A stretch of 64,000 nucleotides of DNA. Origin: Raja brachyura (lineage: Eukaryota). A program made the position numbers and the translations under genes. The first letter of the stretch is position 1. Every line of letters starts with the position of its first letter. Under the pieces are notes generated by a model. The model did no database searches. It was not told the DNA's origin and was given only the letters and a program-made list of their open reading frames with translations. The DNA is taken from contig OY740809.1 in assembly GCA_963514005.1 (NCBI GenBank), positions 26,226,001-26,290,000 on the forward strand, read 5' to 3'. Shown here in pieces: positions 4,606 through 54,600 of this stretch.

Positions 4606-4700
4606 AGGTAGATAAAAATGCCGGAGAATCTCATCGGATGAGGCAGCATCTATGGAGCGAAGGAAAAGGGCAACGTTTCGGGTCGAGACCCTTCTTCAGG
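4606..4700 (-). mobile_element. Penelope-derived short element with hammerhead core
   Basis: Minus strand CTGAAGA-agggtctcgaccc-GAAACGTT at 4699-4672. Confidence 0.75.
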
Positions 4701-5107
4701 CTCAAATTTGTATTGTTTACATACTTTTAGATTGCTCCTCTATTTAGGCTTATTATGGCATCCATTCTAACAGCTTTTCAGTCTCAAAAATACCAGTCAA
4801 CCGTTGCCACTTTTTCTTTTGGCTTTTTTTTTAACCAACCTCCGCAATAAGACCTAGCTAAAAGCCTTGCAAAATTCTATGCACATTATATCAAAGGCAT
4901 TACCCTTCCTGATTCCTCTTGTGAAGTTTTCAAACATTTGTCTCCCATTGTTCTTTAAAATACTACTTGATAGAAGGGATATTTCTTCAAAAATAAACAT
5001 CCTGTCAGTTTATAATTTTTTATAGATTTGTAAACATTCAATGATTTTTACATAAACCATACACCTCTTAAATTTCAAGCAAGTTTGTACATAATCATTA
5101 AACCTGC

Positions 5108-5198
5108 CTTGGGGTCTGGTTTGCTGCTGTTGCCAACGAGTACTGGGTCTCATCTGGGCCATCTGATTTGGTGCATAATAGGTAGCTCTGTTTTGTGC
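5108..5198 (-). CDS. pabpc4: PABPC4 exon 9 (linker), ending at a GC donor
   Basis: tag| AQNRATYYAPNQMAQMRPSTRWQQQQTRPQG |gcaggt; 91 bp; only the GC donor keeps frame with exon 10. Confidence 0.88.
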
Positions 5199-5619
5199 CT
5201 AGAAGAAAACCAGAACCTATTTTATCCTTTTTGTAAAAATATTCCTTTCACAACATGTAAATTAAATCAAAGGAATTTCTCTGTTAGACTATTTCAAGCT
5301 TTTAATAGGACTTTGTTTTATTTTAGTACAATATCCTCTATTTTTGTTAAACAACACAATGTGGGCACTGGTGGTAAAGCAAGGAATTATTGCCCATTCT
5401 TAATGGACCTTGAGAAGATGGTGAAGGTATCTTTGTGATCAGCTACAATCCACATGATGTGGGTTTTAACAGGATTATACTGCAGAATACCAAGAGGCAT
5501 AGGGACAGTTGTCTCCTTTATTGGAAAACAGCCATTGAATACACAAAACATAACCCTCGATTAATAGGCAAAGATTGACCTCAAATCAGATAGACCAGTG
5601 GCAGGATTAAATGGTCACA

Positions 5620-5714
5620 GTCTGAAGAAGGGTCTCGACCCGAAACGTCGCCTATCTCCTTCGCTCCTCAGATGCTGCTGCACCCGCTGAGTTTCTCCAG
5701 CTTTTGTGTAACCC
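5620..5714 (+). mobile_element. Penelope-derived short element with intact hammerhead core
   Basis: CTGAAGA-agggtctcgaccc-GAAACGTC at 5622-5649; flanked by a cacagt direct repeat. Confidence 0.75.
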
Positions 5715-6623
5715 ACAGTTGAACTTAAGTTTTGTTGAGCTAGTTAAGATGAACCAAGCATGGAATCCACCCCAACTTGCATCTTTTTTCTTTAATCAGT
5801 GTAGAGGCAACTGAACCAAGATTTCTATACATTTTAACCATATGCTTTCATGTCACGTGTGGGACTAAGACACTTATCAAGGACTTCCAGGAGGTAATAT
5901 CAGCTGCTCTTGTGAAGGACAGTCAATTATGTTTTTCTTCCTACATCTTGTGTTCAGCTACATTCTTCTGTCATTTCAAGGTTGTGATAGTTATCTGAGG
6001 ATGTGTGACTAGAATTGAACATTGTGGAATCACCACCTCTTCTACTCTTTAACAGAATACATAAGATGAATCAGATAACGATGGCTAGACATAGGACAAT
6101 TTAACAATAAATTATATTTTAGGATCTGGAGGACGCTCATGACATACACACGGAAATCTATAATCTATTTCAACAGATGAATACCAGCAATTGCAAACAG
6201 AATCAGTGGCAAAACTCAAGAACTAACCCATAAACTATTATCTAACCAGTAAACAATAAATCTATGGAGTTATAACTAAAAAAGAAACAAGCACAATACT
6301 CATGACGCTTAAGATTCAACTGGGAAATATGTACTAGCCCACTTTCCTAGAATCTTGTGTCAAAGCCTTCTGTCCAAGTGGACAAAAGTGGGTTGAGGGT
6401 TGTGTGTTTAGACTGACAATGATCTGTAAAATGACCTGATATCCTTTCCCATTTCTTTCTTATTTGCTTTGAGTAGAACTTCGGATACCCAATCCACAGC
6501 TGAAAGCAATATACAGCCTGCCCTTAAATCAGTAAGAATCTGTAATTTACTTTTGATTTCTCAGTCTTCTTTATAGCTGCCTGACCTGTGGTGTGAGATG
6601 ATGAAAAATTATCTAGGTCTCAC

Positions 6624-6896
6624 CTGAGGCACAGCTGGCATAAAATAGCCTCCAGCAGCTGGCTGAAATTGGTTGATGATTGTATTGGCTGGCATGGCAC
6701 GCATCCCTGCAATTCGTTGCATATACTGATTAGTTAAATGAGCCTTGCGTTCCTCTTTTCTTTGAGCAAGGGCTACATATAATGGCTTGGAACCAACAAT
6801 ACGACCATTCATTTCTGTTACAGCTTTCGTGGCTTCTTCAGGCGAGGAGAAGCAAACAAAGCCAAAACCTTTGCTTCGACCATCCTCCAGCATTAC
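6624..6896 (-). CDS. pabpc4: PABPC4 exon 8
   Basis: aag| [91 protein letters not shown] |gtgaga; 273 bp; [14 protein letters not shown] and [11 protein letters not shown] are PABPC4-type rather than PABPC1-type. Confidence 0.95.
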
Positions 6897-51547: not shown

Positions 51548-51686
51548 CATGGTGCATAAAACTCCACCAACCATAGTTCATCACTTTGAATAACTTCGTT
51601 GTTGAAGTCACTTTGGGATAGTTCCACAACATCATCACTTGCTGAGTAAAGGGCATTGACAGTGACAAGCAATGTGCCAAAGATAC
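51548..51686 (-). CDS. pdia6: PDIA6-like exon 2 (signal peptide end, thioredoxin domain 1)
   Basis: cag| [47 protein letters not shown] |gtgagt; 139 bp. Confidence 0.93.
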
Positions 51687-52212
51687 CTGCAAAGCAAAAC
51701 AGAACTTGCGTAACTGAAACAACCTTTACACTTAATTTCAGACCAAAGTAGACAAACGTAATTGTAATTTACATGCAAACTCAGTAAAATAAATCTTTGC
51801 AATAAAATTTGAATACCTGGAATACTCCGGTCAGGCACTGCTTATGCACAGATAGTTAATATTTTTCACTGATCTGTAACCTCAAAATGTGTTACTCCCA
51901 TGGAATCCAGGCATGAAAGTTTTAGAATGGATCTGAAGCGACCCCACCACCCAATCCACACAAAGTATGATTGAAATTTGGAATGCACTGCTCCAAGTAC
52001 TCTCAAAATATTAAGGAGCAACTAAAACACCAAGGCCAAGACCCTAATGCAGCAAAATGTGATTACTTGAGTGGGACTGTCAGAATTGATATAGTTGGCA
52101 AAAGTGTCTGTTTCTGGACTAGGAATCTTAATTCAGATTGCACTATCTGTAACACTTTGTTGTTGGATTATTGATATTGCTAGAGAGCCACTTATGTTTT
52201 GTAGTTACTAAA

Positions 52213-53540
52213 ATAGAAACATAGAAAATAGGTGCAGGAGTAGGCCATTCGGCCCTTCGAGCCTGCACCGCCATTCAATGTGATCATGGCTGATCATCCA
52301 ACTCAGTATCCCGTACCTGCCTTCTCTCCATACCCCCTGATCCCTTTAGCCACAAGTGCCACATCTAACGCCCTCTTAAATATAGCCAATGAACTGGCCT
52401 CAACTACCTTCTGTGGCAGAGAATTCCAGAGACTCACCACTCTCTGTGTAAAGAATGTTTTCCTCATTTCGGTCCTAAAGGAATTCCCCCTTATCCTTAG
52501 ACTGTGACCCCTTGTTCTGGACTCCCCCAACATCGGGAACAATCTTCCAGCATCTAGCTTGTCCAACCCCTTAAGAATTTTGTAGGTTTCTATAAGATCC
52601 CCCCTCAATCTTCTAAATTCCATCGAGTACAAACCGAGTCTATCCAATCTTTCCTCATATGAAAGTCCTGACATCCCAGGAATCAGTCTGGTGAATCTTC
52701 TCTGTACCCCCTCTATGGCAAGGATGTCTTTCCTCAGATTTGGAGACCAAAACTGTACGCAGTACTCCAGGTGTGGCCTCACCAAAACCCTGTACAACTG
52801 CAGTAGAACCTCCCTGCTCCTATACTCAAATCCTTTCGCTATGAATGCTAACATACCATTTGCTTTCTTCACTGCCTGCTGCACCTGCATGCCTACTTTC
52901 AATGACTGGTGTACCATGACACCCAGGTCTCGTTGCATCTCCCCCTTACCTAATCTGCCACCATTCAGATAATAGTCTACCCTCATGTTTTTGCCACCAA
53001 AGTGGATAACCTCACATTTATCCACATTGTACTGCATCTGCCATGCATCTGCCCATTCACTCAGCCTATCCAAATCACCCTGCAGCCTCCAAGCATCCTC
53101 CTCACACCTAACTATACCCCCCAGCTTGGTATCATCTGCAAATTTGGAGATGTTGCATTGAATTCCCTCGTCCAAATCATTAATATATATTGTAAATAGC
53201 TGGGGTCCCAGCACTGAGCCTTGCGGCACCCCACTAGTCACTGCCTGCCATTCTGAAAAGGACCCGTTTACTCCTACCCTTTGCCTCCTGTCTGCTAGCC
53301 AGTTCTCTATCCACATCAATACTGAACCCCCAATACCGTGTGCTTTAAGTTTGTATGCTAATCTCTTATGCGGGACCTTGTCGAAAGCCTTCTGAAAGTC
53401 TAGATACAACACATCCACTGGTTCTCCCTTATCCACTCTACTAGTTACATCCTCGAAAAATTCTATCAGATTTGTCAGACATGATTTACCTTTCGTAAAT
53501 CCATGCTGACTTTGTCCAATGATTTCACCACTTTCCAAAT
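52213..53540 (-). mobile_element. Young 5'-truncated CR1 LINE with an uninterrupted RT C-terminal ORF
   Basis: ORF 52303-53598: QHGFTKGKSCLTNL, YLDFQKAFDKVPH, GVPQGSVLGP, FADDTKLG, LVRPHLEYCVQFWSP; CR1 tail. Confidence 0.95.
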
Positions 53541-53877
53541 GCGCTGCACAAAATAATGGCACAATGGCACAAATGCGCTGCACAAAATAATGGCACAACT
53601 ACAGAATAGATTTGTAGGGTACAAAAGAAAGCAAACATCAGGGTAGGCACCTTATAACAGCTGCATTCAAAACAGATTATAAATATCTTTAACTGGCCAT
53701 TCCCAAGTATAAAAAAAGCCCCCCAAAATATCACCAATCAGGCCTCTTTTCATTATAAGCTGGTTTGAAAGTCACACAATATGGTATTGATAGTACTGTT
53801 TGGTTTCAATGGACCATTGTGGGCTCCACCTTTCCTTGGTCATCGGTGCAGGATCTGATTTGTTTTGAACCTTTTCA

Positions 53878-53982
53878 TACCTCTAGTTTCCCTCTCCCTT
53901 GACCCAAGTCTGAAGAAGGGTCTCGACCCGAAACGTCACCTACTCCCTTTCTCCAGAGATGCTGTCTGACCCGTTGAGTTAC
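53878..53982 (+). mobile_element. Penelope-derived element with intact hammerhead core
   Basis: CTGAAGA-agggtctcgaccc-GAAACGTC at 53910-53937. Confidence 0.75.
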
Positions 53983-54289
53983 AAACCACGTGGATGGACT
54001 CAAAATGTGGGAGTATTTCAGGTAGGGGATAAAACAGTGGCCATAAAGGTCAGTAATGGAAATCATTATCTTCATCAACTGTTCCTATAACTATGAAGCA
54101 TACAACAAAAGGCACAAAGAAAACTAATGTTGGGGTCCAAAAAATACATTAGTTTCAACATATAGTGGCAATACAGTAATTATAGCTTAATGTGTAAAAT
54201 GGTCTGCACACAATAACTAAAAGATGTTTCACTCGAATATGCAAAATAACACTTCCACAACATCAGAACTCTCTTCTTGTGCTCATTGT

Positions 54290-54600
54290 AAAGTGTTGGA
54301 GTAACTCAGCGAGTCAGGCAGCATCTCTGGAGGATACGGATAGGCGACCTTTCGGATCGGGACACTTCGTCAGACTTCTTAAGTCTTAAGAAAGGTCCCG
54401 ACCTGAAACGTCGTCTAACCGTATCCTCCAGAGATACTGAAGAAGGGTTTCGGCCCGAAACGTTGCCTATTTCCTTCGCTCCAGCTGCCTCACCCGCTGA
54501 GTTTCTCCAGCACTTTTGTCTTCCTCCGGAGATACTGTCTGACCCACTGAGCTGAACCAGCACTTCATGTTTAACTTCAGATTCTAGCATCTGTAGACCC
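54290..54600. mobile_element. Nested Penelope-derived elements (younger copy 54440-54523 inside an older palindromic copy)
   Basis: Core CTGAAGA-agggtttcggccc-GAAACGTT at 54437-54464; direct repeat ctcc(a/g)gagatactg at 54426-54439 and 54524-54537. Confidence 0.7.

What the first reader, a model, noticed from the sequence alone, without database searches (positions are those of the whole stretch)
4672..54464. Dispersed short elements carrying minimal hammerhead ribozyme cores, linked to a Penelope GIY-YIG element
Seen: intact CUGAAGA-(A)GGGUCUCGACCC-GAAAC-GUH cores at 4672-4699 (-), 5622-5649, 16924-16951 (-), 16953-16980, 53910-53937 and 54437-54464 (stem II variant GGGUU/GGCCC), plus many decayed copies. 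Helix III is reduced to the loop-less palindrome ACGU. The same unit terminates a Penelope GIY-YIG remnant at 45190-45848. Established: Penelope-like elements carry minimal type I hammerheads with a palindromic helix III that are thought to act as dimers. Inference: these are abundant non-autonomous pLTR-only retroelements. Helix I is only 2-4 bp in these copies, so activity is not guaranteed.
Basis: partly seen in the sequence, partly recalled or inferred. Interest (0 to 1): 0.7.

Follow-up and report, generated by a model that had tools for sequence, protein, structure and literature searches.

The report
Hammerhead-headed Penelope retroelement fragments
These are many short, mostly decayed end-pieces of a known jumping gene (a Penelope-like retrotransposon) in a skate- or ray-like genome, each starting with a minimal hammerhead ribozyme motif that probably mattered in the parent element rather than in these copies; what stands out is how dense they are and how often they begin right at the ribozyme's edge.

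Summary
All six cores are present verbatim (0 by chance). They head a ~125-nt module that is the 3' end of an endonuclease-positive Penelope-like element (Neptune-type homologues), in a cartilaginous fish, probably a skate. These are published Penelope signatures. Corrections: helix I is 0-2 bp in the six intact copies; the motif on the GIY-YIG remnant is dead; five of six intact cores belong to a subfamily with no ORF link in the window; older copies lose core bases as fast as flank (12/105 vs 90/575, P=0.3). Helix I covaries in invertebrate relatives, so the structure is selected in source elements. Read depth hints at 10^5-10^6 copies per genome. A separate non-autonomous family is possible, not shown; activity is untested. 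The scan noted the same thing earlier in two other shark-like genomes. New member of a known kind.

The parts
4606..4706 (-). Family A solo arm, intact core 4672-4699, no tail; 5' end 7 nt upstream of C3; 13-bp target duplication at 4593-4605 and 4707-4719 (1 mismatch); in an intron of a PABPC-type gene
5619..5714 (+). Family A solo arm, intact core 5622-5649, no tail, no target duplication found
7729..7858 (+). Family A copy with tail; helix III palindrome broken (ACGU to AAGU)
11197..11290 (.). Decayed family B arm (-) with a short inverted partner; both arms start near the cut site (ambiguous)
16857..17078 (.). Best-preserved insertion: head-to-head pair. Tailless arm 16857-16951 (-), one central base at position 2.1, tailed arm 16953-17078 (+); both cores intact; exact 15-bp target duplication at 16842-16856 and 17079-17093; folds as one ~95-bp hairpin
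18311..18403 (+). Older family A arm; 4-bp helix I, but G12 lost and stem II broken
24915..24991 (+). Decayed partial unit with tail
32265..32334 (-). Decayed partial unit starting at about G12, with tail remnant
33927..34132 (.). Family B head-to-head pair, tail on the left arm, junction within 2 nt of C3, both cores mutated; 13-bp target duplication with 2 mismatches (score within the random range)
42208..42336 (.). Family B insertion: short inverted arm joined inside stem II to a tailed arm; 18-bp target duplication (1 mismatch)
45182..45845 (+). 5'-truncated Penelope-like element: decayed GIY-YIG C-terminus (frame to 45501), 223-nt 3' region, dead family B hammerhead at about 45724-45748, body and tail; exact 11-bp target duplication; antisense in an intron of a PDIA6-like gene
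50085..50262 (.). Family B head-to-head pair; left arm starts at model position 27-30, right arm at U4; tail on the right
53800..53982 (+). Family B copy with intact core 53910-53937 and a pyrimidine-rich upstream stretch (probably native pLTR; the upstream bound is approximate)
54290..54601 (.). Family B head-to-head pair (junction about 6 nt upstream of C3) whose right arm is interrupted by a nested family A copy
54437..54521 (+). Nested family A copy with intact core 54437-54464; 5' end at C3; 16-bp target duplication (1 mismatch) inside the family B arm; helix I 0 bp
56978..57168 (.). Family B head-to-head pair, tail on the left, right arm internally deleted; 14-bp target duplication (1 mismatch)
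57747..57916 (.). Family B head-to-head pair; left arm starts at about position 30 (next to the cut site), right arm at G12; tail on the right
57960..58017 (+). Core-only fragment with C-rich upstream like the loose-end consensus seen in sequencing runs
58310..58705 (.). Cluster of decayed family B arms (one solo, one inverted pair, a partial head-to-tail piece)
60800..61231 (+). Two decayed family B copies; the first has a pyrimidine-rich upstream stretch

Best explanation
The units are short insertion products of endonuclease-positive Penelope-like retrotransposons (Neptune-type), from at least two subfamilies (A and B, about 80% identical), in a cartilaginous fish. SHOWN: the module runs from the hammerhead core through a ~65-nt body to a 31-40-nt tail; it ends a GIY-YIG remnant; it inserts with 11-18-bp AT-rich target duplications; it often forms head-to-head pairs with the tail on one arm; and 5' ends or inversion points pile up within a few bases of C3. 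INFERRED, using the Anolis in vitro work: the element's protein makes a staggered cut and primes reverse transcription inside the RNA at two sites that bound the tail. Copying stops where the template ends or stalls, just 5' of the hammerhead core. The cDNA ends are joined or folded back at short palindromes, giving the inverted pair. Most copies are therefore dead on arrival: they lack a usable 5' strand of helix I, have no tandem partner, or are locked in a long hairpin. They then decay neutrally, CpG sites first. The hammerhead fold is kept by selection only in source elements, where it would work as a dimer through the ACGU palindrome, probably weakly and with help from the element's protein.
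For: Link to the ORF. In other organisms the same core lies 62-681 nt downstream of a Penelope-type ORF match on the same strand in 20 of 128 matches (duplicated contigs included; 41 of 121 loci had short flanks), and L002 is a near-complete element with an inverted core at its 5' end. Anatomy: 7 head-to-head vs 0 tail-to-tail pairs, with the tail on exactly one arm in 6 of the 7; 18 of 38 profile hits start at model position <=4. Target duplications exceed a 60-pair random null in 6 of 20 hand-bounded candidates, with 1 more borderline; they are 31% G+C. 5 of those 7 insertions have their 5' end or inversion within -7..+4 of C3 (P 3e-4 to 6e-8 depending on the null). The same signatures are published, as are two internal priming sites, cutting and extension of both strands, AT-rich targets and a protein-assisted hammerhead (PMC11167929). 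Neutral decay: family B core 12/105 vs body 90/575, P=0.30; G12 lost in 5 of 10 copies and the C11.1-G12 CpG in 7 of 10. Selection in sources: helix I pairs 1 and 2 hold in 91% and 89% of 54 flank types against 55% and 45% in shuffles, with two-sided changes and 0/500 shuffles as high.
Against: No reverse transcriptase of this element is in the window, so the clade rests on the endonuclease homologues; no tree was built. Family A, which holds 5 of the 6 intact cores, is not joined to an ORF anywhere in the window, and its near-identical short copies would also fit a non-autonomous master. In family A the core is better kept than the body (0/70 vs 48/420 non-CpG sites, P=0.0007), though this reflects subfamily differences and ascertainment. 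The relatives were fetched with a pattern that fixes the core and three stem II pairs, and many are kin, so their covariation supports helix I only. The two-primer route is inferred; self-priming on an antisense template is the published alternative. No empty site was seen.
Confidence: 0.72

Rival explanations
1. One reading: a non-autonomous, ORF-less retroelement family. A ~126-nt unit (or the ~220-nt palindrome) is itself transcribed and re-copied in trans by the Penelope protein, like a SINE. Most plausible for family A.
For: Family A copies 5622, 7730, 16951 and 16953 differ from their majority by 1-4 of 64 body bases, share sharp ends and have no ORF link in the window. Depth suggests very high copy number. 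pLTR sequences can act in cis for mobilisation in trans (PMC3846280 passage), and pLTR-derived non-autonomous elements are proposed in vertebrates (bioRxiv 10.64898/2026.07.22.740005).
Against: Pair junctions differ from copy to copy (at C3, in stem II, near the cut site), so the palindromes arise anew at each insertion instead of descending from one master. No Pol III A or B box in 5 units scanned and no tRNA gene in the window. Family B ends a real ORF remnant.
Confidence: 0.18
2. The copies are active ribozymes that cut host pre-mRNA or yield circular RNAs (retrozyme-like), cleaving as dimers through ACGU.
For: Six cores are intact with a 4-bp stem II and a 4-bp intermolecular helix III; 2-bp helix I occurs in published Penelope hammerheads; two intact cores lie sense to a PABPC-type pre-mRNA.
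Against: Helix I is 0-2 bp. The active dimer lies 13-26 kcal/mol above the predicted minimum for the six window copies; for 8 relatives the gap is 4-29, so the test separates poorly. The 16857-17078 pair folds as one long hairpin. No tandem of intact units. Published minimal hammerheads cleave weakly or only with protein, and 8 of 9 Xenopus dimers did not cleave.
Confidence: 0.06
3. The palindromic units are MITE-like DNA transposons, and the hammerhead match is an inherited leftover.
For: Long inverted arms and short length.
Against: Target duplications vary from 11 to 18 bp, the ends are asymmetric (tail on one arm), junctions vary, solo arms have their own duplications, and the unit ends a GIY-YIG ORF.
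Confidence: 0.03

Closest known systems
Minimal type I hammerheads of metazoan Penelope-like elements (Cervera and De la Pena 2014, PMC4209133)
   Same: CUGANGA plus one bulged base, G10.1-C11.1, GAAA, palindromic CG at 15.2/16.2, UH; mostly dispersed single motifs, some pairs close together on opposite strands
   Different: Stem II is 4 bp and helix I 0-2 bp here. No shark or skate term was found in the one searchable supplement. The window has 94 intact cores per Mb, against about 9,000 (Xenopus) and 4,000 (coelacanth) per genome in that paper.
Insertion units of endonuclease-positive PLEs, Neptune/Nematis type (PMC8557442, PMC3846280)
   Same: C-terminal GIY-YIG with two cysteines inside the motif, CX2-5CxxC linker in homologues, pLTR with hammerhead, adjacent inverted 5'-truncated copy, 30-40-bp tail at one end, variable target duplication, palindromes at inverted junctions
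   Different: Here most insertions are only the last 90-130 nt, with a sharp 5' boundary at the core; no reverse transcriptase in the window
Poseidon element of Anolis carolinensis, PAc (Frangieh et al. 2024, PMC11167929)
   Same: Two 3' end classes separated by a tail, AT-rich targets, insertion into its own terminal module, hammerhead upstream of the priming sites
   Different: A different clade. In PAc the ORF starts at stem II; here the first ATG in the unit lies about 50 nt after C3. No biochemistry exists for this element.
Non-LTR retrozymes (Cervera and De la Pena 2020, PMC7229834; Li et al. 2026, bioRxiv 10.64898/2026.07.22.740005)
   Same: Small, non-coding, hammerhead-bearing, Penelope-related; reported from one chondrichthyan genome
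   Different: Retrozymes are head-to-tail tandems of 150-450 bp, mostly with canonical hammerheads and circular RNAs; these units are solo or head-to-head with minimal cores

Membership tests
PLE minimal type I hammerhead | Core boxes CUGANGA and GAAA..UH | tested here: met
   6 intact copies
PLE minimal type I hammerhead | One unpaired base between 9 and 10.1; G10.1-C11.1 pair; stem II | tested here: met
   Bulged A and 4-bp stem II in all 6; feature list
PLE minimal type I hammerhead | Palindromic 15.2-16.2, no helix III loop | tested here: met
   ACGU in all 6; broken at 7730
PLE minimal type I hammerhead | Helix I of 2-6 bp | tested here: inconclusive
   2 bp in 4 copies, 0 bp in 2; covarying 2-4 bp in relatives; published range includes 2 bp
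PLE minimal type I hammerhead | Self-cleavage as a dimer | not testable with these tools
   Only folding energies were computed
Canonical hammerhead (Rfam models) | Match to a curated covariance model with helix III and loop-loop contact | tested here: not met
   No hammerhead family among 7 hits at E<=1
Endonuclease-positive PLE (Neptune/Nematis type) | C-terminal GIY-YIG domain with CCHH motif | tested here: met
   Remnant aligns to the C-terminus of 827-883-aa RT+EN proteins, both cysteines invariant; the copy is decayed, with two codons lost after the YI
Endonuclease-positive PLE (Neptune/Nematis type) | CX2-5CxxC linker before the endonuclease | tested here: inconclusive
   The remnant is truncated inside this linker; the closest homologues carry it; criterion
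Endonuclease-positive PLE (Neptune/Nematis type) | Telomerase-like RT and its phylogenetic placement | not tested
   No such RT in the window; present in homologues and L002; no tree built
Endonuclease-positive PLE (Neptune/Nematis type) | pLTR with hammerhead, adjacent inverted 5'-truncated copy, 30-40-bp tail, variable target duplication | tested here: met
   criteria
Non-LTR retrozyme | Head-to-tail tandem with at least two complete hammerheads | tested here: not met
   None of 9 tandem-repeat rows is an array of the hammerhead unit; pairs are head-to-head
Non-LTR retrozyme | Circular RNA product | not testable with these tools
   No RNA holder listed and no raw reads
tRNA-derived SINE | Pol III A and B boxes or tRNA-like head | tested here: not met
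   (simple consensus scan of 5 units)
MITE | Symmetric terminal inverted repeats and fixed-length target duplication | tested here: not met
   Tail on one arm only; duplications of 11-18 bp

The most novel reading that the evidence does not exclude
Skate-type genomes may carry the densest load of hammerhead motifs yet seen in a vertebrate (10^5-10^6 units), produced because the Penelope protein copies only the ~125-nt stretch between a defined RNA 5' end at the hammerhead's edge (a start site or a splice acceptor) and two internal priming sites. Family A may have become an ORF-less retroelement of that size. A minority of arms that start at the cut site would then be a genomic fossil record of hammerhead cleavage in vivo, which has not been seen in RNA for these elements. 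Such a genome would give hundreds of thousands of insertion junctions with which to test the unresolved Penelope transposition cycle.
Probability: 0.25. Interest if true: 0.6.

Novelty: new member of a known kind. Interest (0 to 1): 0.3.

Why it matters
The class is known. Two things could be useful. First, the apparent abundance: 6 intact cores in 63.7 kb and depth ratios of 1.7-6 x 10^5 compare with about 9,000 minimal motifs in Xenopus and up to 120,000 retrozyme copies in the 28-Gb axolotl genome. Second, the sharp 5' boundary at the core and the one-sided tails make these genomes a large natural data set for an open question: how Penelope elements prime, where their RNA starts, and whether the hammerhead ever cuts in vivo. 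The long hairpins in introns are also potential double-stranded RNA sources (inference only).

Tried and rejected
No whole genome is held, so no genome-wide count was possible. Rfam: no hammerhead hit; the miRNA-family hits are the palindromes, far below gathering score. The core pattern found 0 in viral contigs and 0 in prokaryote genomes. Sequencing runs: no RNA holder listed and contigs only; this says nothing about expression. Empty-site test: contigs of three laid runs reach into the 16857-17078 insertion from unique flank (X1 and X4 from both sides, X6 from the left); none joins across it, and X14 does not cover the locus. Loose ends at 16954-16956 were not used as evidence for a 5' boundary, because the palindromic reference forces every alignment to break there. 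The per-site variant table could not test core conservation (34 rows hidden; filter biased to intact copies). Cut-site boundary: 3 clear and 2 ambiguous of about 14 internally starting arms are compatible with position 29 (P 0.07 to 0.002, post hoc, hand-counted), but 0 of 6 internally starting partner arms in relatives start there; kept as a lead only. Splice-acceptor idea: pyrimidine tracts of 68-86% precede U2.1 in 4 copies, but only 2 of 4 keep an AG there, these upstream stretches align poorly to one another, and no spliced copy was found; untested. A suspected frameshift in the PDIA6-like exon was my misreading. MITE, SINE and tandem retrozyme readings were rejected (membership table). 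Literature searches for a report of these motifs in skates or sharks found none beyond the one unnamed chondrichthyan in the 2026 preprint. That preprint's supplements were closed, file 1 of the PMC4209133 supplement could not be searched, and Repbase/Dfam were not available, so a prior description cannot be excluded.

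
Full report
Observation. The six cores are present letter for letter at the stated places. A 28-nt pattern allowing 3 mismatches finds 9 matches against 0 in 100 shuffles. Profiles of the whole unit find 33 hits (0 in 10 shuffles at E<0.01) and, with the tail included, 38 hits covering 4.4% of the window, of which 4 are minisatellite units and a few are weak. 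Rfam has no hammerhead hit, as expected for a motif without helix III.

Setting. The window is eukaryotic. It holds a poly(A)-binding-protein gene on the minus strand, exons from about 168 to 28200, and a PDIA6-like gene on the minus strand, exons at about 44905, 51560 and 54800. The best protein matches to the endonuclease remnant are annotated as Leucoraja erinacea and Hypanus sabinus, so the host is a cartilaginous fish, probably a skate (inference). No whole genome is held.

The unit. From C3 the module is a 28-nt hammerhead core, a body to about +90-95 and a tail to about +125. Two subfamilies are about 80% identical over 121 aligned bases. Family A has 7 core-spanning copies and 5 of the 6 intact cores; family B has about 12 and 1 intact core. 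The core matches the published consensus for Penelope minimal hammerheads: CUGANGA, a bulged base, G10.1-C11.1, GAAA, a palindromic CG, UH (PMC4209133; I read parts 1-2 of 4 of the text and part 2 of 3 of supplement file 2).

Link to Penelope. The frame at 45196-45498 matches 725 representatives at E<=0.001. Of 9 homologues scanned, 8 hit Pfam GIY-YIG (2 above the curated cut-off) and 3 also hit RVT_1 weakly. The remnant aligns to the C-terminus of an 883-aa RT-plus-endonuclease protein. The homologues carry the CX2-5CxxC linker that marks Neptune and Nematis elements (criterion from passages of PMC8557442); the remnant is cut inside that linker and no tree was built. An exact 11-bp duplication bounds the remnant at 45182-45845, and a family B unit starts 223 nt after the stop. 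That unit's hammerhead is dead (3-nt deletion). In 20 of 128 matches a Penelope-type ORF match lies 62-681 nt upstream on the same strand (duplicates included). L002 is a near-complete element with an inverted core at its 5' end and a direct core 130 nt after the stop.

There are 7 head-to-head pairs and no tail-to-tail pair, and in 6 of the 7 the tail is on exactly one arm. Of 20 hand-bounded candidates, 6 have target duplications above a 60-pair random null and 1 is borderline; 13 have none. They are 11-18 bp and 31% G+C. The cleanest case, 16857-17078, is a 95-nt tailless arm, one central base and a 126-nt tailed arm within an exact 15-bp duplication; it folds as one hairpin at -214 kcal/mol. 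A family A copy at 54437-54521 is nested inside a family B arm with a 16-bp duplication and starts at C3. An adjacent inverted 5'-truncated copy, a 30-40-bp tail at one end and palindromes at the junction are described for Penelope elements (passages of PMC8557442 and PMC3846280). In relatives, 22 of 105 matches have an inverted partner upstream.

5' boundary. 18 of 38 hits start at model position 4 or less; three of these probably continue into native pLTR. Among the 7 insertions with duplications, 5 have their 5' end or inversion within -7..+4 of C3 (P 3e-4 under a narrow null). So the boundary is the front of the hammerhead, not its cut site. A few arms are compatible with the cut site, but this is post hoc and was not repeated in relatives (0 of 6). 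Pyrimidine tracts precede U2.1 in four copies. The Drosophila virilis intron ends at helix I and lies just after an internal promoter's start (passages of PMC2377424), so a start site or splice acceptor at this edge is a lead, not a result.

Constraint. Among 10 ungapped family B copies the 11 core positions differ at 12 of 105 sites, against 90 of 575 in the body of 12 copies (P=0.30). G12 is lost in 5 of 10 and the C11.1-G12 CpG in 7 of 10 (two gapped copies were left out of the core count, and an earlier count with them gave 21/128, P=0.79). CpG sites change faster than others in family B (24/92 vs 124/779, P=0.018). Against this, family A cores are better kept than bodies (0/70 vs 48/420, P=0.0007), but the body differences are mostly between subfamilies and 5 of 7 copies were picked for an intact core. 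In 54 flank types from relatives, helix I pairs 1-2 hold in 91% and 89% of rows against 55% and 45% shuffled, with 75 two-sided changes against 39, and the named register beats every slid one. Rows are related and the core was fixed by the pattern, so this supports helix I only. Reading: selection acts on source elements; copies decay.

Abundance and age. Laying four runs on 16520-18700 placed about 97,000-116,000 contigs per run, almost all on the unit. Summed depth on the unit over single-copy flank depth is 1.7-6 x 10^5 in three runs. The tool warns that this is not a copy number; it agrees in order of magnitude with 94 intact cores per Mb in this one window. Published counts are about 9,000 and 4,000 minimal motifs for Xenopus and coelacanth and up to 120,000 retrozyme copies in axolotl (passages of PMC7229834). 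The 16857 insertion is present in runs coded as three organisms and no empty site appeared, so it is not brand new.

Mechanism. In vitro, the Anolis Poseidon protein cuts and extends both DNA strands at AT-rich sites, starts cDNA at two internal sites that bound the tail, needs no hammerhead cleavage for insertion, and assists the hammerhead; no RNA-seq ends were seen at the cut site (PMC11167929, parts 1-2 of 4). Applied here (inference): one DNA end primes at the tail's far edge, the other at its near edge, both copy to a stop at the front of the hammerhead, and the ends meet at a short palindrome. This gives a head-to-head pair, a tail on one arm and an 11-18-bp duplication. Self-priming on an antisense template is the published alternative for the inversion. 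I put 0.72 on these being such by-products, 0.18 on a separate non-autonomous family (best for family A), 0.06 on active host-cutting or circle-forming ribozymes and 0.03 on MITEs. Predicted energies place the active dimer 13-26 kcal/mol above the minimum for the six window copies, but relatives span 4-29, so this is weak evidence.

Novelty. Penelope minimal hammerheads, their dispersal as truncated copies and the inverted and tailed insertions are all in print. A 2026 preprint (parts 1-3 of 5 read; supplements closed) finds tandem retrozymes in one chondrichthyan and ties them to pLTRs. My searches found no description of this family in skates, but repeat databases were not available. Two earlier notes of this scan describe the same thing in other shark-like genomes; I read them after forming my view and treat them as unverified. 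Verdict: real, a new member of a known kind, interest 0.3. The abundance and the sharp boundary are the parts worth a genome-wide look.

Noticed in passing
window 28715-29075: A 52-bp minisatellite (6.9 copies, 96% match) just upstream of the PABPC-type gene's first exon; 4 units weakly match the tail end of the Penelope module on the minus strand (E about 0.03), so it may be an amplified tail of an older family.
   Followed up: partly
window 168-28200 (-): Poly(A)-binding-protein gene with four RRM-encoding exon groups and a C-terminal exon near 168; PABPC4-like by recall, paralogue not tested.
   Followed up: partly
window 44900-54900 (-): PDIA6-like gene (thioredoxin exons at about 44905-45000 and 51540-51660, first exon about 54790-54825, CpG-rich 5' region). 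Its position next to the PABP gene was not compared with other vertebrates.
   Followed up: partly
window 52303-53598 (-); fragments at 22900-23570, 30650-31540, 37770-37870, 39420-39510, 59030-59950: LINE reverse-transcriptase ORF of 430 aa (Pfam RVT_1, E 2e-25) and decayed relatives; CR1-type by recall.
   Followed up: no
window 1400-2300 (+): Another decayed non-LTR-like coding remnant (no Pfam hit); a loose CUGANGA..GAAA match at 1552-1578 lies within it and lacks the UH end.
   Followed up: no
window 29431-29730 and 56113-56412: Two 300-nt copies, 95% identical, unrelated to the hammerhead unit.
   Followed up: no
window 13566-13956: 161-bp tandem repeat, 2.4 copies, in an intron.
   Followed up: no
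window 5555-5566 and 7698-7706: Short tail-like pieces lie just upstream of the solo family A copies at 5622 and 7730; neither copy has a target duplication, which hints at later rearrangement.
   Followed up: no
units of both families, +6..+45: The purine-rich core and stem II 5' strand can pair with the pyrimidine-rich stretch just after the cut site in most predicted folds, an alternative structure that would block the ribozyme fold.
   Followed up: partly
L002 979-3528: Near-complete Penelope-like element in a metagenome contig (two overlapping frames), flanked by an inverted hammerhead at the 5' end and a direct one after the stop.
   Followed up: partly
window about 43230-43510: Assembly gap of 282 N.
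   Followed up: no
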